Source: an uncultured Gammaproteobacteria bacterium
GTDB lineage: Bacteria > Patescibacteriota > Patescibacteriia > Patescibacteriales > UBA12465
NCBI GenBank assembly: GCA_964470695.1
Contig: CAYYDR010000001.1
Location: 10,638 to 74,637, forward strand
Length of the DNA stretch: 64,000 nucleotides
Direction of reading: 5' to 3'
The stretch's first letter is position 1. Each line of letters begins with the position of its first letter. Shown in pieces: positions 43,402-53,838 of the stretch. Under the pieces are notes generated by a model, which worked only from the letters and a program-made list of their open reading frames with translations, ran no database searches and was not told where the DNA came from. A program made the position numbers and the translations under genes.

Positions 43402-44085
43402 ATGAAATATAATGACAATAATGTCCTGGTTAGCATTGCTGGTCGCGGTGAAAAAGTTTTGCTGGCTAAAATAAAGGAAATTAACCAGCGTAAAATTACT
43501 CGCGTCGCTTTATTTTTAACCATGGCTGATAAGACCGAGAGAAGGCATATCTATCAGGCTTTGTTAAAATCAACTATTAAAGAAATTCCTTTTGTGCATT
43601 TGCGTAATGATATTAGTGCCGCGGAAGTCGCCTGGTTAGAAAAGAATTTTCAGCCCCGCTATTATAATATTCATGAGAATGGTTTTAATTATTTGCATAA
43701 ATGGATTAGTATTAAGAAAAAAATATATTTAGAATTAGCAGGGCACGAGAAGCGCAACCCAGAAGCGAGAATAGAAAAGATAGGCGGATTCTGTGTTGAC
43801 TTAGCTCATTATAAAATGGGCGAAGTGAGACAGTCGGATCAGTTCAAATATCATTTATCAAAGAAGAAGAATAAAGCGGCTTTTGTCTGCAACCATTTAA
43901 ACGGCTATGACGCTAAGCATAATACTTGTATCCATGAAGTTAGCCGCTTGTCAGATTTTTCTTATTTAAAAGGATTGCCAAATTTTATTTTTGGCCGGCT
44001 TATCGCCTTAGAGCTAGAAAATCCTATTAAAGAGCAATTAGTCTGGCGGAAGAAATTGTTGTTAATTTTGAATAATAGGGCTTGA
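43402..44085 (+). CDS. Hypothetical protein
   Basis: 227 aa with no recognised family. Has Cys/His pairs (CNHLNGYDAKHNTCIHE). Confidence 0.4.
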   Translation: MKYNDNNVLVSIAGRGEKVLLAKIKEINQRKITRVALFLTMADKTERRHIYQALLKSTIKEIPFVHLRNDISAAEVAWLEKNFQPRYYNIHENGFNYLHKWISIKKKIYLELAGHEKRNPEARIEKIGGFCVDLAHYKMGEVRQSDQFKYHLSKKKNKAAFVCNHLNGYDAKHNTCIHEVSRLSDFSYLKGLPNFIFGRLIALELENPIKEQLVWRKKLLLILNNRA

Positions 44086-44164
44086 TTTGTATTGACAAAT
44101 AGTTATGATAAGTTAAAATAATTTATTAATTAATCGTTTTTTCACAACTTAATAAGGGAAAATA

Positions 44165-44641
44165 ATGAAAAGGAAGAAAGATAATTTTATTGATTCTGTG
44201 CTATTGGCAGCTAAAAAATTAGACATTGATTTAGAAAGCGGATTATACGGATGCCACCGCGGGCTAGACTGTGGTAATGTTGGCTGTTTGTATCGTGCAG
44301 TATTTTCTAAATTGCCGGTTATTGTTATAGCACAAGAGTGTACCGATACGGGATTTTTAATTAAGGCAGTCATATCTTTATTTCCAAGAAAAGGCATGTC
44401 GTCTTTAACTAAAGAGGAAAAAAAGCTGAAGACCTTCTATTTATATTTTAAAGAAGATGATTACGCTTATCTTGATCAAGATTCAAAACATTTTTTTGAA
44501 AAGTTCAAAAAGGGTAAACCGTTCTTTGAGGGCAATTGGCAGGAGGTAATGGTTAAGACGGCTGGCATTTTGCAGGGGTCTCCTAACAGCACTCCGAAAC
44601 AAGAGAAATTTATCAAGGCGATATCAGCCATAAAGCCATAA
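44165..44641 (+). CDS. Hypothetical protein with CxxxxxC...C cluster
   Basis: 158 aa. Contains CHRGLDCGNVGC. A terminator follows (gggcgg...ccgccc tttttt at 44641-44680). Confidence 0.4.
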   Translation: MKRKKDNFIDSVLLAAKKLDIDLESGLYGCHRGLDCGNVGCLYRAVFSKLPVIVIAQECTDTGFLIKAVISLFPRKGMSSLTKEEKKLKTFYLYFKEDDYAYLDQDSKHFFEKFKKGKPFFEGNWQEVMVKTAGILQGSPNSTPKQEKFIKAISAIKP

Positions 44642-44773: not shown

Positions 44774-46084
44774 ATGCAAGTAAGTAAAAAAGATCTGGAT
44801 AAATCACAGATAGAGCTGACGGTTGAACTGTCGGCCGAAGAACTAGCGCCTTATATTGAAAAAGGGGCGCAAAAAGTTTCTGAAGAGGTTAAAATTGAAG
44901 GCTTCCGTCCCGGCAAAGTTCCGTATGATGTTTTAAAACAGAAAATAGGGGAAATGACTATTTTGGAAGAAGCGGCTAATATCGCGATTAGAAAAACAAT
45001 TGATGAAGTGATTGAAAAAAATACTATGGAGCGCCAGGCCATTGGCCAGCCCCAGGTTAATGTTACAAAACTCGCGCCTAATAATCCTTTAGAATACAAA
45101 GTTGTTTTATCTCTTCTCCCGACAGTCGCTTTAGGAAAATATAAGGGTTTAAATATTAAAGTTGAGGAGGCTAAATTAGAGAAGGGTGAACTTGATAAGG
45201 CTATTAACGAGTTAAGAGAAATGCGTGCTCAAGAAAAAGTCGCGGATAGAGCCGCGGAAATGGGCGATAAGATTACTGTTAATATAAAAATGTTTTTGGA
45301 TAAAGTTCCGGTTGAAGACGGCGAGCATAAAGACTTGGCGATTATGTTAGGTAAGGATTATTTTGTGCCGGGCTTTGATAAAAAGTTAGTCGGCATGAAA
45401 AAAGATGAGGAAAGAAAATTTGAATTGCCTTATCCCGAGAATCATCATTTAAAAAATTTAGCCGGAAAGATGGTAGAGTTTGAGGTAATAGCTAAAGAAG
45501 TGTATAGCCGAGAACTGCCGGAATTAAATGATGAATTCGCTACTTTTTTCCGCATGAAAGATTTAGCTGAGCTCAAGAAAAATTTAGAAGAAAGTATTTT
45601 ACACGAGAGAAAGCATAAGATTGAAGCTAAGAATGAAGCAGAAATTGTCACTAAGATAATTGATGATACTAAATTCGGTGATTTGCCAGAAGTAATGGTC
45701 CAGAGCGAGCTAAAAAATATGCTAGCCGAATTAGAGCAGAGCGTCGTCCGCCAGGGAGGGAAGTTTGACGATTATTTACAGCATTTGAAAAAAGATAGAG
45801 CGGGACTCATGCTAGAAATGTCGCCTAACGCCGTTAAGCGCGTTAAGTCGGCCATGGTAGTTAGAGAAATTGCGATAGTAGAGAAAATAGCGGCAGGAGA
45901 AAAAGAAATAGCCGATAAGATAGAAGACCTTAAAAAGGAATATGCCAACAATAAGGAGGTTCTAAAAATGTTAGGAGAACATGGCTATGCCCATTATTTA
46001 CAAAACGTTTTAACTAATGAAAAAGTAATCAGTAAGCTTAAAGAATGGAATTATGCCCCAGTTAGCCCAGAACAGAAAAGCTAA
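44774..46084 (+). CDS. tig: Trigger factor
   Basis: 436 aa with N-terminal ribosome-binding domain (GFRPGKVP), PPIase-like middle domain and C-terminal arm. Confidence 0.85.
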   Translation: MQVSKKDLDKSQIELTVELSAEELAPYIEKGAQKVSEEVKIEGFRPGKVPYDVLKQKIGEMTILEEAANIAIRKTIDEVIEKNTMERQAIGQPQVNVTKLAPNNPLEYKVVLSLLPTVALGKYKGLNIKVEEAKLEKGELDKAINELREMRAQEKVADRAAEMGDKITVNIKMFLDKVPVEDGEHKDLAIMLGKDYFVPGFDKKLVGMKKDEERKFELPYPENHHLKNLAGKMVEFEVIAKEVYSRELPELNDEFATFFRMKDLAELKKNLEESILHERKHKIEAKNEAEIVTKIIDDTKFGDLPEVMVQSELKNMLAELEQSVVRQGGKFDDYLQHLKKDRAGLMLEMSPNAVKRVKSAMVVREIAIVEKIAAGEKEIADKIEDLKKEYANNKEVLKMLGEHGYAHYLQNVLTNEKVISKLKEWNYAPVSPEQKS

Positions 46085-46511
46085 TTTTGACTATGAGATC
46101 CTGGATAAATATGAAGCCGGGCTGGTTTTGTATGGGCACGAGGTTAAGGCGGTTAAAGCGGGCCAGGTGAGCCTTAAAGGAAGCTTTATCTCGGTTAGGA
46201 CTAAAGACGGTAAAACCGAGCTATATCTCGTAGGCTGCCAAATTTCGCCCTATAAGCAGGCCGGGCCTATGCCTGACTATAATCAGACTAGAGAACGTAA
46301 ATTATTGCTTAATCGTCGCGAAATAAGCCATCTTTTAGGGAAACGGCAAACCGAGGGCTTGACACTAATACCACTCAAAATATATACTAATCATAGTTTT
46401 CTGAAGCTGGAATTCGCGATTGCCCGCGGCAAGAAGCAATATGATAAAAGAGAGTCTATTAAGAAGCGGGAATTAGATCGGAGTTTGCGGTCTTTAACAA
46501 AGAGGAAATAG
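46053..46511 (+). CDS. smpB: SsrA-binding protein
   Basis: 152 aa. ANFDYEILDKYEAGLVLYGHEVKA and LLLNRREISHLLGK are present. Overlaps the tig 3' end. Confidence 0.9.
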   Translation: MPQLAQNRKANFDYEILDKYEAGLVLYGHEVKAVKAGQVSLKGSFISVRTKDGKTELYLVGCQISPYKQAGPMPDYNQTRERKLLLNRREISHLLGKRQTEGLTLIPLKIYTNHSFLKLEFAIARGKKQYDKRESIKKRELDRSLRSLTKRK

Positions 46512-46897
46512 GGGGATGTCAGGCATCGACAGCTGGAATTCTTCTAAATATTCAAGACGCGCTTAGCTACTCGCGTTAAACTGACTAAAAAAACACAAAT
46601 GCCAAAACGGCAAGAGCTTTCACTTGGTTAACTCCAAGTTATGCTCCAGTTATGGCCTAATTAATAAGGCGATAACCATCGGACGCGGCCAGTCTTCATA
46701 ACCGTCTTCCGGTGTCATAAACATGAAGATAGATATTGACTGCTCCTTCCGGGCAATATCAAACTAATAGAAGGATCGTTTCAATCGCTTTTCGTTTGGT
46801 TTTTGATGGTTGAGGCTAAAAAATAAAATCAATCTACTCTTGTAAATGTATTTAGACGAGCCAACTGGACATGGGTTCAAATCCCATCATCTCCACC
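46512..46897 (+). ncRNA. ssrA: tmRNA (ssrA)
   Basis: Starts GGGGAUGUCAGGCAUCGACAG directly after the smpB stop. The 3' end has a tRNA-like T-arm (atggg-ttcaaat-cccat) and acceptor strand catctcc-a-cc. The acceptor helix ggggatg/catctcc contains G3.U70 (alanine identity). A candidate tag ORF starts with GCC at about nt 90 (46601-46660). Confidence 0.7.
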
Positions 46898-46911
46898 GAA
46901 TAATGAAATAA

Positions 46912-46995
46912 GCCGCGGTGGCGGAACTGGTAGACGCGCTGGACTTAAAATCCAGTTGTAGCGATACAGTGCGGGTTCGATTCCCGCCCGCGGCA
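46912..46995 (+). tRNA. tRNA-Leu, anticodon UAA
   Basis: Acceptor gccgcgg/ccgcggc, anticodon stem ctgga/tccag with loop cttaaaa (anticodon TAA), long variable arm, T-arm gcggg-ttcgatt-cccgc. Confidence 0.8.
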
Positions 46996-47016
46996 CACCA
47001 GTTTTAAAAGTAAATT

Positions 47017-47088
47017 GCGGGTATCGTATAGTGGTTATTATGCGACCTTGCCAAGGTCGAGAGACGGGTTCGATTCCCGTTACCCGCT
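47017..47088 (+). tRNA. tRNA-Gly, anticodon GCC
   Basis: Acceptor gcgggta/tacccgc, anticodon stem cgacc/ggtcg with loop ttgccaa (anticodon GCC), T-arm acggg-ttcgatt-cccgt. Confidence 0.85.
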
Positions 47089-47127
47089 CACAAAACAGAA
47101 GCAGTCCGAAAGGGCTGTTTTTGTTTT
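47073..47127 (+). repeat. Left direct repeat: tRNA-Gly 3' end plus terminator-like hairpin (candidate attL)
   Basis: attcccgttacccgctcacaaaacaga (47073-47099) is repeated exactly at 50778-50804. It is followed by the hairpin cagtcc-gaaa-gggctg plus a T-run. Confidence 0.7.
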
Positions 47128-47487
47128 GTATTAGCAGGGATACTAACGTTAACAGGAATTAAATCCGTCATTATGTTCATCGTTAAATGATAAAGTTACT
47201 TTTTGGGAGGCTCTGACAAAAAGCGCTAAGGGTTTTGAAAAATGGTTTAATGTTTTTGTAAATGGGATTTCAATAATTGCATTTTTTATTATAACTCTCT
47301 CAATACTTTATTGTCTTGTTTATCTTTTATACAAATTAGCCCATATTTTTATATAGAAGTTCGTAAAGTTTATATATCACTAATAGAAAATAAAGCATGA
47401 ATTTGCTTTATTTTTGTTTGACATATTGGATGAATAATTGTAATCTTGAAGTATTTAGATTAATCCTTAACCTATTAAAGGAAATAT

Positions 47488-48300
47488 ATGTACCTAGAGA
47501 GCATTATTAATTTGTTTTATTCATGGCAAGCTCTGATCGGGTCTTTTATTGGTGCGGCAGCGCCTCTCGTTATTTGGTTTTTTATTCAAAGACATGAAAA
47601 TATAAAAAAAAGGAAAGACAATCTTTATTATCTAGAAAGATTATTGGTTTTTAATATAAATTTGGTTGGAGACACATACAGAACGGTAAATAAATTTATT
47701 AATGAAAATTTACAATTTTTAATGGACAATGTTCAAAGTCATATTATTGATAAGAAATATTCGTTAGATGGAACTTTTTTCCCGCTATTTCTGTCAAAAT
47801 TTGTTGATAAAAATATGTTACGCTTGAATACCGGCAGTAGTTATTTGGACAACAAGTTAAATCAGGTGCAACATATGTCAGAAAATTTTTCGGCTGGGAT
47901 TAACGACTTAAGATATCAGTTTAGAGAATTAGTGAACAATAATAGGGTCATGGTGGTAGAAAAAATGAATGATCCGGATGTACAATCTTATATCTATAAA
48001 AAAAATTTGGAAGAATTTGTTGCGGCTACTAGAAGAGATTTATTAGAAATAAACATTATTAGTTATCTGAAATTTTTAATAAAAGTTAGGGCTGCGGCTA
48101 TATTTTATAAAAAAATCGGTAATCTAAAGTGGCAAATGAAGTTTTCGCCTAGGTATAGATTTTTTTTGAGCAGAAAAAAATATGAAGAGAGTTTAGATTC
48201 GATTCATGATAATATAGATAAATATTTTGATGAAGAAGCTGAAAAAGAATTTCAACTTATTTTAACTCAACTGGAGAAGCCAGAAATTAAAAGAAAATGA
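47488..48300 (+). CDS. Hypothetical membrane-anchored protein (island cargo; upstream partner of the KAP NTPase)
   Basis: 270 aa. N-terminal TM helix (LIGSFIGAAAPLVIWFFI), then a predicted helical cytoplasmic domain with no recognised motif. A promoter-like TTGACA lies at 47418-47423. Confidence 0.4.
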   Translation: MYLESIINLFYSWQALIGSFIGAAAPLVIWFFIQRHENIKKRKDNLYYLERLLVFNINLVGDTYRTVNKFINENLQFLMDNVQSHIIDKKYSLDGTFFPLFLSKFVDKNMLRLNTGSSYLDNKLNQVQHMSENFSAGINDLRYQFRELVNNNRVMVVEKMNDPDVQSYIYKKNLEEFVAATRRDLLEINIISYLKFLIKVRAAAIFYKKIGNLKWQMKFSPRYRFFLSRKKYEESLDSIHDNIDKYFDEEAEKEFQLILTQLEKPEIKRK

Positions 48301-48416
48301 TTATTAGATAATTTTATGTTTTCTAAAATTTGGTAGGGTTGTTTGATAATTGTGCTAATTTTTAATAAATAGACCGCTAGCTTATTAAAGCGTATAAACG
48401 ATTAATTTTAATATAT

Positions 48417-50453
48417 ATGGATGAGATGAACCGTAAAATTGAAAATGCTATTCAAGAAATTAAAAAAGAGCTTAGCAATAGAGATGATATAGCTTCTAAT
48501 ATTGGTATGCAATGGACTATTGATGATGTTTTATATAAGCCTCTTGAAAATAGAGGAATAGAGCGCTCTGTTATAGCTAGCGCTGTTAGGTTTTTATTGA
48601 ATGATGGTAAATATTTAGTTCTTGGACAAAGTGGTGGTGGTTATGGAACATTAACTCCAGAAGGGTGGCAGTGGGTTTTTGGAAAAGTAAACGTGGACAA
48701 TAATGAAGATAAAAATAATAAAAATCGTGAACAATCCCTAAATATTTTAAGAGATTATGTAAAAAATATAGTTTCAAAATTATCACCACGTGAACAGAAA
48801 ATTCTGGAAATGCGTTTTGGTTTAATTGATGGAGTGACGCACACATTGGAAGAAGTGGGCCAAGAATTTGAAGTAACCCGTGAAAGTATTCGTCGTATCG
48901 AGAGCAAAGCTTTAGAAAAAATAAGACGATTTGAAGGGATAGAAAAATTAAAAGAACTTTCTGCTAAAGATGATAGTCTTAAATTTGATAATTACGTTAA
49001 AGAATTGTTTGAAAAGAGTTTTGATAAACAAAATGGTATAAGCAAACAAAATAAAAATGGAAAGTTTAATTATACGCTACTTGATGATGGAAATTTAAGA
49101 ATGAATACTGGTAATTCTAAACCATCCATTGGTGTCGAAGATATATCTAGTGAAATAGCTAGTATATTAGTGAATATGAAAGGACAGGACGGCGCTATGT
49201 TTGGTGTATTTGGTAGATGGGGAAGAGGGAAAACGTATTTGATGAATGAAATAAAAAAGAAAAATGTTGTTAAGGAAAATTTTCATATTGTAGATTTTAA
49301 TGCTTGGAAATATCAAGATGTCCCCGCTTTGTGGGCATATTTATATTGTGAAATATTAACAAGTTACTTGCAGCGAGGTCTTAGAATGACTAGGTTTTTT
49401 AGAAGTTTTTGGTTAAATATATTTAGGTTTGGTGTAGCTAAGTTTGTATTATCAATAATTATTTCTGTTATTTTTATTTCAACAGCGTTTGTTTGTGGCT
49501 ATGATTTTATAAATTATTTTATTAAAAATAATGAATTTTCATTGATCCTTTCCGCCTTACCGGCTATTGTCGTATTGGCGCCATTATTAGAGACCTTTAG
49601 TTTTGAAAAAACATTTAGTGGTATAATAAAACAAATAACTAAAAAACCTGGATTTTTTAATGCACTTGGCCTACAGCATGAAATTCAGAAAGAGTTAGAA
49701 TTACTATTAAAGGCTTGGTGTTTTTTTAATAATAAAAAGAGCATATTACTAATTGTCGATGATATTGATAGATGTTCAGAGAATAAAATTATCAAAATAG
49801 TTGATGCCTTGAAAGTGATGCTGGATGATCAATCAATAAATAAAAAAATTGTTGTTATTGCTGCTATCGACGAAAGAATATTAAAAAGGGCAATAGAATA
49901 TAAATATCACAATTTAATTAAAAAAGGAAAAGATGATAAAACATTGAACGATGAATTGTATTCAACTATTTTGATGAGAGAATACATGGATAAATTATTT
50001 TTATGTGGGTTACGACTGGGCAAGTTAACAAAAAATGAAGTTATTACTATAGCCGATAATTTTTGTGAGCTGAATACTGATCAGGATGGCGATCATATAA
50101 ATAAAAATTTTAAGAAAGATGGTGTTATATATCAGAATAAGGACGAGAAATATATAATTGATTTGGGTAATATTGATAACAATAATAAAGACACATTATT
50201 AAAAAATCAGATGTCTAAAGAAGAAAGGGATTTAGTACATGTTTATGCTCAAGAAATAGAAAATGTTACGCCTCGACAAATAGGCATATTTGTCTTTCGC
50301 TATCTTTTAGCTAGAAATATATTGCGCATTAAAAATATAGATTATGATTATAAGAGATTGCTCCGTTTAATCGTTGGCTATATGAAAGATGAAAATATTA
50401 AGGATGAAGATGAAATTATATTAAACGTTGTTGAAATGGTGGTTCCTTATTAG
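48417..50453 (+). CDS. Sigma-70 region-4 HTH fused to a KAP-family P-loop NTPase
   Basis: 678 aa. Residues about 120-170 (LSPREQKILEMRFGLIDGVTHTLEEVGQEFEVTRESIRRIESKALEKIRR) are near-identical in pattern to RpoD region 4.2. KAP-type Walker A (GVFGRWGRGKTYLMN) follows, then two TM helices inserted in the NTPase domain (FWLNIFRFGVAKFVLSIIISVIFISTAFV...LSALPAIVVLAPLL), then KAP-type Walker B (LLIVDDIDRCSENKIIKIVDALKVML). Confidence 0.6.
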   Translation: MDEMNRKIENAIQEIKKELSNRDDIASNIGMQWTIDDVLYKPLENRGIERSVIASAVRFLLNDGKYLVLGQSGGGYGTLTPEGWQWVFGKVNVDNNEDKNNKNREQSLNILRDYVKNIVSKLSPREQKILEMRFGLIDGVTHTLEEVGQEFEVTRESIRRIESKALEKIRRFEGIEKLKELSAKDDSLKFDNYVKELFEKSFDKQNGISKQNKNGKFNYTLLDDGNLRMNTGNSKPSIGVEDISSEIASILVNMKGQDGAMFGVFGRWGRGKTYLMNEIKKKNVVKENFHIVDFNAWKYQDVPALWAYLYCEILTSYLQRGLRMTRFFRSFWLNIFRFGVAKFVLSIIISVIFISTAFVCGYDFINYFIKNNEFSLILSALPAIVVLAPLLETFSFEKTFSGIIKQITKKPGFFNALGLQHEIQKELELLLKAWCFFNNKKSILLIVDDIDRCSENKIIKIVDALKVMLDDQSINKKIVVIAAIDERILKRAIEYKYHNLIKKGKDDKTLNDELYSTILMREYMDKLFLCGLRLGKLTKNEVITIADNFCELNTDQDGDHINKNFKKDGVIYQNKDEKYIIDLGNIDNNNKDTLLKNQMSKEERDLVHVYAQEIENVTPRQIGIFVFRYLLARNILRIKNIDYDYKRLLRLIVGYMKDENIKDEDEIILNVVEMVVPY

Positions 50454-50457
50454 ATTA

Positions 50458-50658
50458 TTATTTTAGTTGAAGTATCTGTAATAATTTTGACTTTTCAGCG
50501 TTAATCCTAATCGCTGGGTACGTTGGGTATATATTGTAGAGTTCCGAGAACATGTCATCTGTGGAGCATATAAAAGGCGAGTTTTTTGGCTCGGTGTTAA
50601 TTTGGAAAATTAAATCACCCCGCTCTATATTGCTTGCGGTTGCCCGCGGGTTGCCCAT
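50458..50658 (-). CDS. Small hypothetical ORF at the island's right edge
   Basis: 66 aa with no motif. Convergent with the KAP gene. May be spurious. Confidence 0.2.
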   Translation of the reverse strand: MGNPRATASNIERGDLIFQINTEPKNSPFICSTDDMFSELYNIYPTYPAIRINAEKSKLLQILQLK

Positions 50659-50777
50659 GGGATGATTAAAATTAATAAATTCAATTAATCGTAATAAATT
50701 TAAGACTAAGACTTTTTTCTTATATTAAATAAACTAAAGAAATTAAAAGAATTTCGTTTTGTTCGTTCCTCTCTTCA

Positions 50778-50830
50778 ATTCCCGTTACCCGCTCACAAAA
50801 CAGAGACAGCCCGAAAAGGCTGTTTTTGTG
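50778..50830 (+). repeat. Right direct repeat (candidate attR) plus hairpin copy B
   Basis: attcccgttacccgctcacaaaacaga is identical to 47073-47099, followed by the hairpin cagcc-cgaaaa-ggctg plus tttttg. TATAAT and the next gene's ATG lie immediately downstream. Confidence 0.7.
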
Positions 50831-50845
50831 TTATAATATAATTAT

Positions 50846-51904
50846 ATGGAAAAAGTAAATTGGCACAAAGTTGTCACAAGAGAATATTCATTTTTATGGG
50901 CCAGCTACACTGCCTCGGCCTATAAAATTATGAAAAGATTGACTGGGACGGAGCTTAGATATAATCTTTTTTATACTCAAGGAAGAATATTAACTATCTA
51001 TCGTGAAGCAAAAGACGTCCACCGGTCCTATAAGCTCATAAATGATTTAGCGTCCAAAAATCCACAAAAAATTGTAGAATACCTAAATCATTTCAAGGAA
51101 TTAATTCACAAAAATTATGAGACCTTTAATAAAATAAAAAAAATAAAAAATAAGATGGTGCTCAAAAAAGAGCTTGTTAATTTAGATAAATTGTTTTTGG
51201 AAACCGTAGTATATTACTTATATTTTGCATTTTTGGGTTATGCGGCCGATCAGGGGGCCATTAAAAGATTTTTAAGTAGATATAAAAAACAATTTGAAGA
51301 AGTTAGAATGTTTACTATAGATTTAGACATGCATAAAGAATTTGAACGTCTTTTTGTTAAGTTTGATAAGAGGTTGAAAGGTAAAGTCCTTTTCATGACT
51401 CGTCAGGAATTAATTAAGAACCTTAAGGGGCAAAAAATATTAAAATTAAAGATCCAAAAACGAAAACAACAAGCCTTGATGATTACTAAGAATGGTATTT
51501 CTGGCGAATATCAATTTAATAAGATACAGCAAGCTTTAGATTTTGAATTGTCGCACTTAAAAATTGATAGAAATGTTAAGATATTAGAAGGCAAGACGGC
51601 TTGTCGGGGTAAGGCCAGAGGAACAGCAGTACTAGTGTTTAAGAGAGAAGATTATAAAAAGATAAGAAGAGGAAATATATTGGTTACCCCAATGACTAAA
51701 CCGGAAATTGTTCCATATATTAAAAATGTTAAAGCTATTATTACTAACGACGGCGGAGCCTTGTCTCATGCCTCTATAATATCAAGAGAGTTAAATATTC
51801 CTTGTATTGTTGGGACCACTTATGCTACAGATATTTTGAAGGATAATGACTTAGTAGAGGTAGATGCTGATAAGGGCATAGTTAAAATTTTAAAGAAGGC
51901 TTAA
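50846..51904 (+). CDS. Orphan PEP-utilising-enzyme mobile (swivel phospho-His) domain protein
   Basis: 352 aa. The C-terminal roughly 110 aa match the PEP-utilizers mobile domain (EGKTACRGKARGTAVLV...NDGGALSHASIISRELNIPCIVG, with the catalytic His in SHAS). The N-terminal roughly 240 aa are unassigned. A bidirectional terminator follows at 51947-51985. Confidence 0.55.
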   Translation: MEKVNWHKVVTREYSFLWASYTASAYKIMKRLTGTELRYNLFYTQGRILTIYREAKDVHRSYKLINDLASKNPQKIVEYLNHFKELIHKNYETFNKIKKIKNKMVLKKELVNLDKLFLETVVYYLYFAFLGYAADQGAIKRFLSRYKKQFEEVRMFTIDLDMHKEFERLFVKFDKRLKGKVLFMTRQELIKNLKGQKILKLKIQKRKQQALMITKNGISGEYQFNKIQQALDFELSHLKIDRNVKILEGKTACRGKARGTAVLVFKREDYKKIRRGNILVTPMTKPEIVPYIKNVKAIITNDGGALSHASIISRELNIPCIVGTTYATDILKDNDLVEVDADKGIVKILKKA

Positions 51905-52074
51905 ATTTGTAATTAAGTCGCAAAAAGAGCTCAAATTTTATAAAACACAAAAAATAGACTAATATCAAGTCTATTTTTTGTTTGGTTTCTTTACGCACCA
52001 ATATGTAGCTAATTAAAAAAGCCCTTATTATAAAACAAGGACTTTGTAAATTTTGCTGGAATTGAAATAATTTT

Positions 52075-52800
52075 TTAGAATCTGTTTATTATTTCCATTT
52101 TTGTTTCCATGGTTTCAATATTAATGAATTCCACCGCTAAAGAAACGCGATTGTCTTCATTAAGAGAACTCCATATGTTTTCCGCGATGTTTTCTATTTC
52201 GCCATGGAGTGGCAATAGATATGGATCGCCTGTAAAAGATGGTAGCGGGTCTCCATCTCCAAAATAAGTAGTAACGCAGTAGCCAAAGCCACGGAGTAAC
52301 GATAAATTATAGGAGAAGGAATTACACTCTACGCTCGCCGGAGATTTTTTCAATATGTTAATTTTTGCCCGGCCGTTAAGCTCGTCGTCATTTTTATCAA
52401 ATGTAGCACTTATACGCGGGGTATAGTTTGGCTCATCCGGTTCATAGGCCCAGTCGCCAGAATCTAGCGTTTCCCAACCGGACCTCACTATGTCCTCCGT
52501 TTGATGTCCGTTGCTAACAACGAACATCTTATTTTCCGCATCGCAAGCTATAGCGGTGTATATTATCAGACTGGGGTCCTTTACTTTAGCTGGGTCAGCC
52601 GCTTTTGTTTTTAGAATGCCAGGGCCATCTTCTACGAATATGCGATTTCTACTATTTTCGCTCCGGCCCATGATCCAGTAAACGAAAATTAAGTTTTTAC
52701 CTGAGTCATCAAGTCCGGCTATTATGCCGCGACCGGGGTAAATATTATTAGCCAAAGCTAATAAATTTTCTACAGCTGTCTTTGCTATTTTTTGGTGCAT
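52075..52800 (-). CDS. purO: Archaeal-type IMP cyclohydrolase PurO-like protein
   Basis: 241 aa. YPGRGIIAGLDDSGKNLIFVYWIMGRSENSRNR aligns with PurO's YLGRILAVG...SFVAYRVSSRSFPNR, VVSNGHQTEDI with VVSNGSHTD, and YTPRISATF with NTPRIAA. Confidence 0.6.
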   Translation of the reverse strand: MHQKIAKTAVENLLALANNIYPGRGIIAGLDDSGKNLIFVYWIMGRSENSRNRIFVEDGPGILKTKAADPAKVKDPSLIIYTAIACDAENKMFVVSNGHQTEDIVRSGWETLDSGDWAYEPDEPNYTPRISATFDKNDDELNGRAKINILKKSPASVECNSFSYNLSLLRGFGYCVTTYFGDGDPLPSFTGDPYLLPLHGEIENIAENIWSSLNEDNRVSLAVEFINIETMETKMEIINRF

Positions 52801-52973
52801 TGCGATTTCTCCTTCTGATGTTTGGGTTAATTGTTAATTTACTATTCAAAGAATATTAATATGGAATGAGATATATGTCAAATAAGCCAATAGACAATTG
52901 GTTGGTCTAATTAATGAGATTTTTAATAATATCCTAAACTTATACCAAAGCTATAAGATAGGTTCATAAGATA

Positions 52974-53007
52974 GAGACAGCCCAAAAGGGCTGTTTTTGT
53001 TTTTTTA
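52974..53007 (+). repeat. Hairpin copy C (third member of the island-junction hairpin family)
   Basis: agagacagccc-aaaa-gggctgtttttg is closely related to copy B (cagagacagccc-gaaaa-ggctgtttttg). It has no tRNA fragment. Confidence 0.6.
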
Positions 53008-53094
53008 TGGTGATATACTAATAGTAGAAGCCCCTGATTATAAGGAGGGTCTAATTTTAAAACGTTTCTACCTTAATTAAACATCACTAAACAT

Positions 53095-53838
53095 ATGATA
53101 GGCAGAGAATCTTTAATTCCTAAATTAGAAAAAACTCAGATTTCCGACTCAGAATTAAAAGAAAAAATCCCGAATTTTTTTCAATCCTTTCCAGAGGTTG
53201 AATCAGCTAGTAAAGCCGAAAGAAATTTTGAGGCTAATGATCTAAATATTAGCTTTTCTGTTTCCGATTCCGAGAATATCTTTGCTGATAAAAATTTACC
53301 GAAGAACCATGACGAATTAATCGGCTCTAATTTGCCCATTAACGATCGCCGTCGATTGGAATTTTTAGATTTTTTTCCAGAAGATTATTATAAGGTGGAT
53401 AATTTAATAATTAAGAATAAGGAGGGAAAAATTTTATTTGATTCGCAGCGCGAGGCAAATGGGACTATGATATTTGTTAGAAGAGATGGAAATGATCCAA
53501 ACGGTTCGGGAATCTTGGTTAGTTGTGAAGATGTTAAAATTGAGATTGAGCCAAATTCTCCGGCTGGGCTTTTTACTCTTTTTCATGAGCTAGGGCATAT
53601 TAATAATTTGGAAAAAGATTTTGAACGAATGATGGATATATCAATTGATTGTACTAAGAAAGAAATATCAGAGAATACTCTCGCTATTGAAAGAAATGCT
53701 TGGGCCTATGCCCTACAAAAAATGAGGCCGCTTTTAAAAGATATGGGCGCAAAAGAAGAGGAGATGAATGTTTTTATTCATCAGTGGGCGCTCGGTAGTT
53801 ATTCTAAATATATTGAAAAGTATTTGGCGGCAGCTTAA
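53095..53838 (+). CDS. HEXXH zinc-metallopeptidase-like protein (ImmA/IrrE-like?)
   Basis: 247 aa. LFHELGHINN is a HEXXH motif in a context reminiscent of COG2856/ImmA-type peptidases. No other assignable domain. Confidence 0.35.
   Translation: MIGRESLIPKLEKTQISDSELKEKIPNFFQSFPEVESASKAERNFEANDLNISFSVSDSENIFADKNLPKNHDELIGSNLPINDRRRLEFLDFFPEDYYKVDNLIIKNKEGKILFDSQREANGTMIFVRRDGNDPNGSGILVSCEDVKIEIEPNSPAGLFTLFHELGHINNLEKDFERMMDISIDCTKKEISENTLAIERNAWAYALQKMRPLLKDMGAKEEEMNVFIHQWALGSYSKYIEKYLAAA

What the first reader, a model, noticed from the sequence alone, without database searches (positions are those of the whole stretch)
47073..50830. Genomic island at tRNA-Gly(GCC) bracketed by exact 27-nt direct repeats of the tRNA 3' end, but with no integrase
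Seen in the sequence: attcccgttacccgctcacaaaacaga occurs at 47073-47099 (the T-loop to 3' end of tRNA-Gly plus 9 nt) and again at 50778-50804. Each copy is followed by a related hairpin plus T-run.

Established knowledge: duplicated tRNA 3' ends are the classic attL/attR footprint of site-specific integration into a tRNA gene.

The intervening 3.7 kb is markedly AT-richer than neighbouring housekeeping genes and encodes only a membrane protein, the sigma-4/KAP NTPase and a tiny ORF. No tyrosine or serine recombinase is present, so this looks like a decayed or satellite-type island that retained only its cargo.
Basis: partly seen in the sequence, partly recalled or inferred. Interest (0 to 1): 0.7.

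Follow-up and report, generated by a model that had tools for sequence, protein, structure and literature searches.

The report
Decayed tRNA-Gly integrative defence island
A 3.7-kb stretch of foreign DNA at the end of a glycine tRNA gene in a small-genome Patescibacterium is the stripped-down remnant of a mobile element that has lost all but the last ~30 codons of its integrase gene: a real example of a well-known kind of genomic fossil.

Summary
An exact 27-mer, made of the last 17 nt of tRNA-Gly(GCC) plus 10 nt, occurs at 47073-47099 and 50778-50804 and nowhere else in the window. It brackets the lowest-GC 3.7 kb of the 64 kb (0.291 against a mean of 0.379).

The "missing integrase" is explained. 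Window 47103-47180 (minus strand) encodes 26 residues that are 85% identical to the C-terminal tail of an intact 399-aa tyrosine integrase. In a related Patescibacterium (L019) that integrase sits at exactly this position, next to an identical tRNA-Gly.

Ten metagenomic loci carry integrases 66-93% identical to it, and all lie beside tRNA-Gly(GCC). Where the flank is long enough, these are 9-11 kb elements bounded by 22-25-nt repeats of the same tRNA 3' end. They carry int, an xis-like gene, replication-initiator genes and defence cargo (type III R-M, OLD nuclease, Dsr1-like).

The window's right end (50597-50832) is 83.5% identical to the right end of one such intact element.

So the island is an integrase-deleted derivative, comparable to a cis-mobilizable element (CIME). 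It keeps attL, attR, both arm regions and cargo: a 270-aa membrane protein and a sigma-region-4/KAP NTPase. This is a known kind of feature and of modest interest.

The parts
47017..47089 (+). tRNA-Gly(GCC), the integration target. It is intact after integration and identical or nearly identical to the gene in relatives.
   Evidence: ARAGORN; Rfam RF00005, 60 bits; comparison of the tRNA sequences across relatives.
47073..47099 (+). attL core: the tRNA-proximal copy of the exact 27-nt direct repeat. With one mismatch the identity starts at 47069 (TTCG/AATTCCC...), the same left boundary as in the intact elements.
47092..47127 (+). Element-borne replacement terminator hairpin plus T-run for the tRNA operon. 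It lies inside the integrase 3' tail.
   Evidence: RNAalifold on 10 attL flanks: 19 predicted pairs, and two apical pairs are kept through changes on both sides in 5-6 of 10 sequences.
47091..47195 (-). 3' remnant of the tyrosine integrase gene, also the P'-arm side of attL. Only 35 codons remain open before an in-frame stop. The remnant peptide reads ...MNIMTDLIPVNVSIPANTKQKQPFRTASVL*.
   Evidence: tblastn with the L019 integrase: residues 370-395 match window 47180-47103 at 85% over 26 aa, E 6e-7. blastn: 89-96% over 94-179 nt to L019 and L099. Alignment of the C-terminal tails. It is the only hit of the integrase HMM in the window, E 2.4e-5.
47196..47487 (.). AT-rich spacer with no homology to the intact elements. 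It lies beyond the deletion junction and presumably holds the promoter of the cargo genes.
   Evidence: blastn and tblastx give no hits beyond about 47194. The promoter role is inferred.
47488..48300 (+). Cargo gene 1: a 270-aa protein with one N-terminal transmembrane helix and no Pfam, PADLOC or PHROG match.
   Evidence: Its only homologue among 5.8 billion proteins (P0122, 38% identity) lies in a 15-kb tRNA-Pro element that has an integrase and 26-nt direct repeats.
48417..50453 (+). Cargo gene 2: a 678-aa protein with a sigma-70 region 4 domain fused to a KAP P-loop NTPase. Walker A is GRWGRGKT and Walker B is LLIVDD. Two hydrophobic helices are inserted in the NTPase domain.
   Evidence: Pfam KAP_NTPase 5e-25 and Sigma70_r4 7e-15. 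PADLOC QatA, PifA and MzaA partial hits. Motifs and hydrophobicity. Homologues lie in defence-type neighbourhoods.
50597..50777 (+). Conserved non-coding right end of the element (the P-arm side of attR). It contains the conserved block CTATATTGC...GGTTGCCCGCGGGTTGCCCATGG.
   Evidence: blastn of window 50597-50832 against L102 349-117: 83.5% over 237 nt, E 6e-64. Four-element alignment. A role as arm-type binding sites is inferred.
50778..50804 (+). attR core: the distal copy of the 27-nt repeat, representing the displaced tRNA 3' end.
50797..50838 (+). Terminator hairpin and GTGTTATAAT box on the chromosomal side of attR. This is probably the native tRNA-Gly terminator and the promoter of the next gene.
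   Evidence: The same 'terminator + GTGTTATAAT' flank is present in relatives L013 and L017. Terminator scan.
52964..53008 (+). Third, partial copy of the repeat (terminator part only). It lies in a divergent intergenic region where no + strand gene ends. Whether it belongs to the island is uncertain; it may be a relic of an older junction.

Best explanation
The interval 47090-50777 is what remains of a small integrative element of Patescibacteria. Its tyrosine integrase recombines an attP, which copies the 3' end of tRNA-Gly(GCC) plus a terminator, with the chromosomal tRNA gene.

Integration rebuilt the tRNA from element sequence (attL, with an element-borne terminator that overlaps the integrase stop codon region). 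It displaced the original tRNA 3' end and terminator 3.7 kb downstream (attR).

A later deletion removed the integrase gene upstream of its last ~30 codons, together with the xis-like and replication genes that intact relatives carry next to it. What is left is attL, attR, about 95 nt of the left arm, about 180 nt of the right arm, and two cargo genes pointing towards attR.

The cargo is most likely an anti-phage module. This is inferred from family membership and neighbourhoods, not shown.

The island cannot excise by itself. Because both att sites and both arm regions are retained, it could in principle be moved by a cognate integrase supplied in trans, like a cis-mobilizable element. That is also an inference and was not tested.
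For: Shown:
- The exact 27-nt repeat of the tRNA 3' end is present, with none expected by chance.
- The island is the compositional extreme of the window.
- L019, a relative with SmpB 81% identical and the same smpB-tmRNA-tRNA-Leu-tRNA-Gly cluster, has a 399-aa ORF (Pfam Phage_integrase 1e-33, Phage_int_SAM_3) and an HTH_17 xis-like gene directly after an identical tRNA-Gly.
- Window 47103-47180 (minus strand) matches that integrase's residues 370-395 at 85%, and the DNA matches at 89-96%.
- The window frame is closed by a stop 35 codons from its end, whereas the intact genes stay open for at least 108 codons.
- Ten metagenome loci carry integrases 66-93% identical to the L019 one, and all are adjacent to tRNA-Gly(GCC).
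- L093/L094, L101 and L102 show a second copy of TTCGATTCCCGTTACCCGCTCA 9.07, 10.4 and 11.0 kb away. The left boundary of identity is the same as in the window.
- Window 50597-50832 is 83.5% identical over 237 nt (E 6e-64) to the right end of the intact L102 element.
- Intact elements carry defence cargo oriented like the window's: type III R-M and Schlafen/AlbA_2 in L101, OLD nuclease and a Dsr1-like protein in L102. They also carry replication initiators.
- The 270-aa protein's only homologue lies in a 15-kb tRNA-Pro element whose integrase is 45% identical to the L019 one, flanked by 26-nt direct repeats.
- KAP homologues sit beside Mrr, GmrSD, DpnII, SduA and methyltransferase genes.
- KAP NTPase fusion proteins have been shown experimentally to protect against phage (PMC13552941).
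Against: - No empty site (tRNA-Gly directly followed by the 50846 gene) was found. In all 14 relatives, synteny stops at tRNA-Gly.
- No intact element carrying this same cargo was found.
- The only other assembly of this organism (Logan SRR13723396) has the identical arrangement, so there is no population evidence of gain or loss.
- The defence function of the cargo is inferred only. The 270-aa protein matches nothing known.
- The 290 nt between the integrase remnant and the first cargo gene has no homologue, so the exact deletion history cannot be reconstructed.
Confidence: 0.88

Rival explanations
1. The island is an active satellite-type or cis-mobilizable element. It no longer needs its own integrase because a cognate integrase, encoded by a sibling element elsewhere in the genome or by an incoming element, still excises and integrates it through the retained attL and attR.
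For: - The 27-nt cores are identical and both arm regions are retained at 84-96% identity to intact elements.
- The integrase family is large in Patescibacteria: 3199 proteins at E <= 1e-20.
- The concept is established for CIMEs (PMC5704250).
Against: - The only hit of the profile built from this integrase family in the 64-kb window is the remnant; that profile was not designed to find other recombinase families.
- None of the 120 best integrase homologues is reported from a contig of 677,688 bp, the size of the contig that holds this island. This is weak evidence, because only the longest contig of each protein cluster is shown.
- The xis-like gene is also gone.
- No excision junction could be searched for.
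Confidence: 0.12
2. The island is only the proximal part of a larger composite. Two or more elements accreted in tandem at tRNA-Gly, and the segment 50839-52963 (the PEP-utilizer-domain gene and the IMP-cyclohydrolase-like gene) is an older, more decayed insertion that ends at the third terminator copy, 52964-53008.
For: - The third copy matches the distal repeat with 3 mismatches in 30 nt, against none expected by chance.
- It lies in a divergent promoter region where it terminates no + strand gene.
- The gene at 50846-51904 has GC 0.316, the fourth lowest in the window.
- Neither gene is found next to tRNA-Gly in the relatives.
- Tandem accretion is common at such sites (PMC5704250).
Against: - The third copy has no recognisable tRNA 3' segment.
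- The segment shows no homology to the ends or genes of the intact elements.
- The IMP-cyclohydrolase-like gene has ordinary GC, 0.39-0.44.
- The 'terminator + GTGTTATAAT' flank of the second copy is shared with L013 and L017, which fits it being the native chromosomal flank.
Confidence: 0.2
3. There was no insertion. The distal repeat is a relic of a duplicated tRNA-Gly gene or terminator, and the genes between the copies are native.
For: Terminator-like paralogues of the tRNA-Gly downstream sequence also occur 1-5 kb downstream in relatives L013, L017 and L021 without any integrase.
Against: - Both inner ends are homologous to the ends of integrase-bearing elements.
- The left boundary of repeat identity is the same as in the intact elements.
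- The interval is 3.4 sd below the window's mean GC.
- The cargo genes are absent from all relatives at this locus and occur elsewhere only in island-like contexts.
Confidence: 0.02

Closest known systems
Cis-mobilizable elements (CIMEs): decayed integrative elements of Streptococcus and other Firmicutes
   Same: [quoted passage not shown] The window island fits that description: both att sites and both arms are kept, and int and xis are deleted. Like many CIMEs it sits at the 3' end of a tRNA gene.
   Different: CIMEs derive from conjugative or mobilizable elements (ICEs and IMEs). The intact relatives found here show no conjugation or relaxase genes among the ORFs tested, only int, an xis-like gene, a replication initiator and cargo. 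The host is a Patescibacterium with a genome of about 0.68 Mb. Mobilisation in cis or trans was not tested.
Classical tRNA-associated genomic islands and prophage remnants with P4/lambda-type tyrosine integrases (for example E. coli pathogenicity islands). This comparison rests on my own knowledge.
   Same: The target is the 3' end of a tRNA gene. The direct repeat runs from the T-loop to the tRNA 3' end (22-27 nt). The integrase gene lies next to the tRNA-proximal junction and is transcribed towards the tRNA. Base composition is deviant, and the integrase is frequently lost or degraded.
   Different: The element is very small: 3.7 kb here and 9-15 kb when intact. The integrase reading frame runs through the element-borne terminator and stops at a TGA that overlaps the tRNA 3' end, so the attP core overlaps the end of int.
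Defence islands and defence hotspots carried on small integrative elements (P4-like satellites, pipolins, E. coli hotspot islands: PMC9122126, PMC11551731 and PMC10121019, listed)
   Same: A conserved integration module is combined with a variable cargo region holding different defence systems in different copies: type III R-M, OLD, Dsr1-like and KAP NTPase.
   Different: No homology to the core genes of P4 or pipolins was seen, and no helper phage is known. An anti-phage function for the window's cargo is inferred only.
KAP-family P-loop NTPase defence proteins (PifA of the F plasmid, QatA of QatABCD, EF_KAP of Enterococcus; PMC13552941)
   Same: The protein has a KAP NTPase domain with intact Walker A and B motifs and hydrophobic helices inserted in the domain, and it is fused to a variable extra domain.
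   Different: The PADLOC hits cover only the P-loop region (about 60 residues) of QatA and PifA. The fused domain is a near-copy of the housekeeping sigma factor's region 4, which is not a feature of PifA, QatA or EF_KAP. No qatBCD partners are present.

Membership tests
tRNA-targeting tyrosine-integrase integrative element (genomic island) | Inserted at the 3' end of a tRNA gene, which stays intact | tested here: met
   tRNA-Gly(GCC) at 47017-47089 is called by ARAGORN and Rfam. Its sequence is identical to that of relatives.
tRNA-targeting tyrosine-integrase integrative element (genomic island) | Flanked by direct repeats that duplicate the tRNA 3' segment (attL/attR) | tested here: met
   Exact 27-nt repeat, none expected by chance. 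The left boundary is the same as in the 22-25-nt repeats of intact elements.
tRNA-targeting tyrosine-integrase integrative element (genomic island) | Encodes a functional tyrosine recombinase next to one junction | tested here: not met
   Only a 26-35-codon 3' fragment remains at 47091-47195. No other recombinase lies between the repeats. The island is therefore filed as a decayed derivative, not as a functional member.
tRNA-targeting tyrosine-integrase integrative element (genomic island) | Ends homologous to those of intact elements of the same family | tested here: met
   Left end: 89-96% identity to L019, L099 and L102. Right end: 83.5% over 237 nt to L102.
tRNA-targeting tyrosine-integrase integrative element (genomic island) | Unoccupied site in related genomes or strains | tested here: inconclusive
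   All 14 relatives keep smpB-tmRNA-tRNA-Leu-tRNA-Gly but have different DNA downstream, so no orthologous empty site can be defined.
tRNA-targeting tyrosine-integrase integrative element (genomic island) | Excision or a circular intermediate | not testable with these tools
   This needs read-level data or an experiment.
Cis-mobilizable element (CIME) | [quoted passage not shown] | tested here: met
   Definition taken from PMC5704250.
Cis-mobilizable element (CIME) | Derived from an ICE or IME and mobilised by accretion with an incoming related element | not tested
   The intact relatives show int, an xis-like gene and rep but no conjugation genes among the ORFs scanned. Mobilisation cannot be tested here.
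KAP-family NTPase anti-phage proteins | KAP P-loop domain with Walker A and B motifs and transmembrane helices inserted in the domain | tested here: met
   Pfam PF07693, 5e-25. GRWGRGKT, LLIVDD and two hydrophobic segments at residues 333-396.
KAP-family NTPase anti-phage proteins | Protects against phage | not testable with these tools
   Only neighbourhood evidence and the literature on other KAP proteins are available.
QatABCD / PifA / Mza systems | Full-length match to the system's protein and presence of the partner genes | tested here: not met
   PADLOC hits cover only about 45-75 residues of profiles of roughly 450-720 positions. No partner genes are present in the island.

The most novel reading that the evidence does not exclude
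This reading has two linked parts.

First, the 9-15-kb tRNA-specific elements (int, an xis-like gene, rep and swappable cargo) may be a main vehicle by which ultra-small Patescibacteria genomes exchange defence genes. The window island would then be a still-mobilisable cassette of that system.

Second, its cargo may be a new kind of sensor. This is a membrane-associated KAP NTPase whose N-terminal part is a near-copy (77-81% identical) of region 4 of the housekeeping sigma factor. It could act as a decoy that detects phage proteins which bind or appropriate sigma region 4.
Probability: 0.15. Interest if true: 0.6.

Novelty: new member of a known kind. Interest (0 to 1): 0.3.

Why it matters
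In itself this is a textbook decayed tRNA island, and the apparent puzzle of att sites without an integrase is resolved by the integrase remnant.

Its modest value lies in three points:
- It documents a coherent family of tRNA-Gly(GCC)-specific integrative elements in Patescibacteria/CPR. These organisms have genomes of about 0.7 Mb, and I found no description of their mobile elements or defence-gene traffic in the searched literature.
- It shows that the site downstream of smpB-tmRNA-tRNA-Leu-tRNA-Gly is a recurrent insertion hotspot in this clade.
- It points to an unusual cargo protein, a sigma region 4 copy fused to a KAP NTPase, that may be worth testing as an anti-phage sensor.

Tried and rejected
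- Viral collection. The 27-mer has no exact match in IMG/VR and the integrase has no relative there. Nothing therefore suggests a recognised prophage. No phage structural genes were seen among the element ORFs scanned.

- Empty site. SmpB-anchored loci from 14 related genomes all lose synteny at tRNA-Gly. Some relatives have an S1-FtsH-NusB-RNase III block 0.7-6.8 kb downstream of tRNA-Gly, but that block is absent from the window. No empty site could be defined.

- A shared 'second copy' sequence in L013, L017 and L021 and the window's third copy at first looked like an attR of another element family. Its left part, AAATTTATAACCAAACTGCAAAAGGAG, turned out to be a locally repeated intergenic motif in those relatives. 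It is absent from the window. I therefore do not use it as evidence for a second element.

- A direct repeat of tRNA-Asn around the closest KAP homologue's island (L004) was not found.

- Cognate integrase in the same genome. There is none in the window. None of the top 120 family members comes from a 677,688-bp contig, but this is inconclusive.

- The 66-aa minus-strand ORF (50458-50658) has no family hit and is not conserved in L102, so I reject it as a gene.

- Rfam found no extra RNA in the window beyond the tRNAs and tmRNA, and none next to tRNA-Gly in L014-L016.

Full report
**1. The observation**

ARAGORN and Rfam place tRNA-Gly(GCC) at 47017-47089. It is the last gene of a cluster: smpB (46053-46511), tmRNA (46512-46898), tRNA-Leu (46912-46996), tRNA-Gly.

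The 27-mer ATTCCCGTTACCCGCTCACAAAACAGA occurs at 47073-47099 and 50778-50804. It occurs nowhere else in the window on either strand, even with 3 mismatches. None of 100 dinucleotide-preserving shuffles gave a match. Its first 17 nt are the T-loop-to-3'-end segment of the tRNA.

The similarity extends to 65 nt at 88% identity (47069-47133 against 50774-50838), and each copy ends in a G+C hairpin with a T-run.

The enclosed 3.7 kb has GC 0.291. That is the lowest of all 3.7-kb windows in the 64 kb (mean 0.379, sd 0.026). Its two genes are the two lowest-GC genes of 51.

**2. What lies between the repeats**

- 47488-48300 (+) encodes a 270-aa protein with one N-terminal hydrophobic helix and no Pfam, PADLOC or PHROG match.
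- 48417-50453 (+) encodes a 678-aa protein with a Sigma70_r4 domain (7e-15) and a KAP_NTPase domain (5e-25). It has Walker A GRWGRGKT, Walker B LLIVDD, and two hydrophobic segments inside the NTPase domain.
- A 66-aa minus-strand ORF (50458-50658) has no match and is not conserved in the homologous region of a related element. I do not regard it as a gene.
- No intact recombinase is present.

**3. The integrase is not absent but deleted**

I anchored on SmpB and fetched the same locus from related genomes. The organism is a Patescibacterium. The best SmpB matches, at 63-85% identity, are 'Patescibacteria group' and 'Candidatus Falkowbacteria' MAGs.

Fourteen relatives keep H+-PPase, trigger factor, smpB, tmRNA, tRNA-Leu and tRNA-Gly. 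None carries any of the window's downstream genes next to tRNA-Gly. The tRNA-Gly sequence is identical or nearly identical in all of them.

In one relative, L019, the DNA after the tRNA matches the window for about 95 nt beyond the tRNA and then diverges. In L019 that stretch is the 3' end of a 399-aa minus-strand ORF with Phage_integrase (1e-33) and Phage_int_SAM_3 domains. An HTH_17 excisionase-like gene follows it.

tblastn with this integrase finds one place in the window. Positions 47180-47103 (minus strand) are 85% identical over 26 residues to integrase residues 370-395. The DNA is 89-96% identical to L019 and L099.

The window's reading frame gives ...MNIMTDLIPVNVSIPANTKQKQPFRTASVL*. 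L099 gives ...NIMTDLVPVNVNIPANTKQKQPFRTVSVL*. The window frame is closed by a stop 35 codons from its end, whereas the intact genes stay open for at least 108 codons.

A profile HMM of nine such integrases hits only this fragment among all stop-to-stop ORFs of the window (E 2.4e-5).

**4. The element family**

A metagenome scan with the L019 integrase returned twelve related loci.

- All ten with integrases 66-93% identical lie directly beside tRNA-Gly(GCC), downstream of tmRNA and tRNA-Leu where that flank is present.
- A 52%-identical integrase lies beside tRNA-Glu, and a 45%-identical one beside tRNA-Pro. Target choice therefore tracks the integrase clade.

Where 10 kb of flank is available, a second copy of the tRNA 3' end is found:

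| Locus | Spacing | Exact repeat |
|---|---|---|
| L093/L094 | 9.07 kb | 22 nt |
| L101 | 10.4 kb | 24 nt |
| L102 | 11.0 kb | 25 nt |

All three repeats start at TTCGATTCCC. The window's repeat has the same left boundary with one mismatch (TTCG/AATTCCC...).

These intact elements hold the following genes:

- int and an xis-like HTH gene;
- replication initiators: rolling-circle Rep in L101 (PHROG 3419, 1.7e-20) and a wHTH replication initiator in L093;
- variable cargo oriented towards attR: type III Mod/Res and Schlafen/AlbA_2 in L101, an OLD-family nuclease and a Dsr1-like protein with a LexA-type HTH in L102, and a trypsin-like protease in L093.

No relative of the integrase is present in IMG/VR.

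**5. The right end**

Window 50597-50832 is 83.5% identical over 237 nt (E 6e-64) to the right end of the intact L102 element. A four-element alignment shows a conserved non-coding block, CTATATTGC...GGTTGMCC...GTTGCCCA. These may be arm-type integrase sites, but that is inferred.

Both inner ends of the window's island are therefore homologous to the ends of integrase-bearing elements at the same site. This is the decisive evidence that the repeats are attL and attR and that the island is a deletion derivative.

**6. How it works (inferred from the anatomy)**

The element's attP copies the tRNA 3' end plus a terminator. After recombination the tRNA is completed by element sequence. The element also supplies the terminator.

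The hairpin is kept through changes on both sides of two apical pairs in 5-6 of 10 elements (CAGTCC/GGGCTG, CAGACA/TGTCTG, CAGGCT/GGCCTG, CAGGCA/TGCCTG). It lies inside the integrase C-terminal tail, and the integrase stop codon (TGA) overlaps the tRNA 3' end.

The displaced chromosomal flank at attR is a terminator followed by GTGTTATAAT. The same flank occurs in relatives L013 and L017, which fits it being native.

Loss of int, xis and rep fixes the cargo in place. [quoted passage not shown] Whether a cognate integrase elsewhere could still move it cannot be decided here.

**7. The cargo**

The 270-aa protein has a single homologue among about 5.8 billion proteins (38% identity). That homologue lies in a 15-kb element with a 45%-identical integrase next to tRNA-Pro(TGG), 26-nt direct repeats and a type III R-M system.

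The KAP protein belongs to a large family with many alternative fused domains, including helicase, TIR, EVE, LRR and Clp_N. Its closest relatives lie in the following contexts:

- P0002 (69% identity): an 8-kb low-GC island directly after tRNA-Asn, beside an Mrr-like nuclease;
- P0004 (45% identity): among GmrSD, DpnII and SduA genes;
- P0005 and P0006 (37-40% identity): beside methyltransferases, RelA/SpoT and GIY-YIG genes.

KAP NTPase fusions were recently shown to protect against phage in a Walker-B-dependent way (PMC13552941). A defence role is therefore likely but not shown.

**8. Loose ends**

A third copy of the terminator part lies at 52964-53008, with 3 mismatches in 30 nt to the distal repeat. 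It sits between two divergently transcribed genes and terminates no + strand gene. It may mark an older junction, which would make 50839-52963 an earlier accretion. However, it lacks a tRNA segment, and the segment has no element-like features. I give this reading about 0.2.

**9. Verdict**

As a kind of object it is well known, so I file it as a new member of a known kind. Interest is about 0.3. That score comes mainly from the host lineage, the element family now defined around it, and the unusual sigma-region-4/KAP protein.

Noticed in passing
window 48723-48956 (residues 103-180 of the KAP protein, gene 48417-50453); compare L004 5572-5805: The sigma-70 region 4 domain of the KAP NTPase is 77% identical to the C-terminal 78 residues of the housekeeping RpoD of another Patescibacterium. 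In that genome its own KAP homologue (P0002) is 81% identical to its own RpoD. Identity this high suggests a recently captured or constrained copy of sigma region 4, possibly a decoy for phage proteins that bind sigma, rather than a generic HTH.
   Followed up: partly
window 52964-53008: A third, partial copy of the tRNA-Gly downstream terminator (3 mismatches in 30 nt to the copy at 50800-50829) lies in a divergent intergenic region, about 90 nt upstream of the gene at 53095. No + strand gene ends there.
   Followed up: partly
L019 11094-12293; L093-L102 integrase 3' ends; window 47091-47127: The integrase reading frame runs through the element-borne terminator hairpin, giving a conserved ...PANxKQKQ... 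tail. It stops at a TGA that overlaps the tRNA 3' end, so the attP core overlaps the end of int.
   Followed up: partly
L017 12091 and 12898; L021 14192, 15871 and 16386; L013 5946 and 7630: A ~28-nt intergenic motif, AAATTTATAACCAAACTGCAAAAGGAG, recurs after genes downstream of tRNA-Gly in three relatives, once fused to a copy of the tRNA-Gly terminator. It is absent from the window. Its nature is unknown.
   Followed up: partly
L015 11033 and 11251 (contig end at 11272): In one relative a second copy of the tRNA-Gly 3' end (22 nt) lies only 218 nt downstream, separated by a G+C-rich segment, and the contig ends there. Several other contigs also end at or within about 120 nt after tRNA-Gly (L025, L026, L096, L098, L099). 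That pattern is what strain-variable insertions at this site would produce in assemblies.
   Followed up: no
L004 6945-15400: The closest KAP homologue (69% identity) lies in an ~8-kb low-GC island directly after tRNA-Asn(GTT). The island has an Mrr-like nuclease but no integrase and no detectable direct repeat. It looks like another, more fully decayed tRNA island.
   Followed up: partly
window 43402-44641: Two ORFs of unknown function (227 and 158 aa, GC 0.36-0.37) lie between the H+-PPase and trigger-factor genes. They are missing from nearly all relatives. Only L102 has a homologue of the first, at 59% identity. This is a second small variable spot.
   Followed up: no
L021 11066-16411: This relative has a 5.3-kb segment after tRNA-Gly with a HigB/HigA-like toxin-antitoxin pair (my reading of the sequences, not a database match) and no integrase. 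It ends at a copy of the tRNA-Gly terminator.
   Followed up: no
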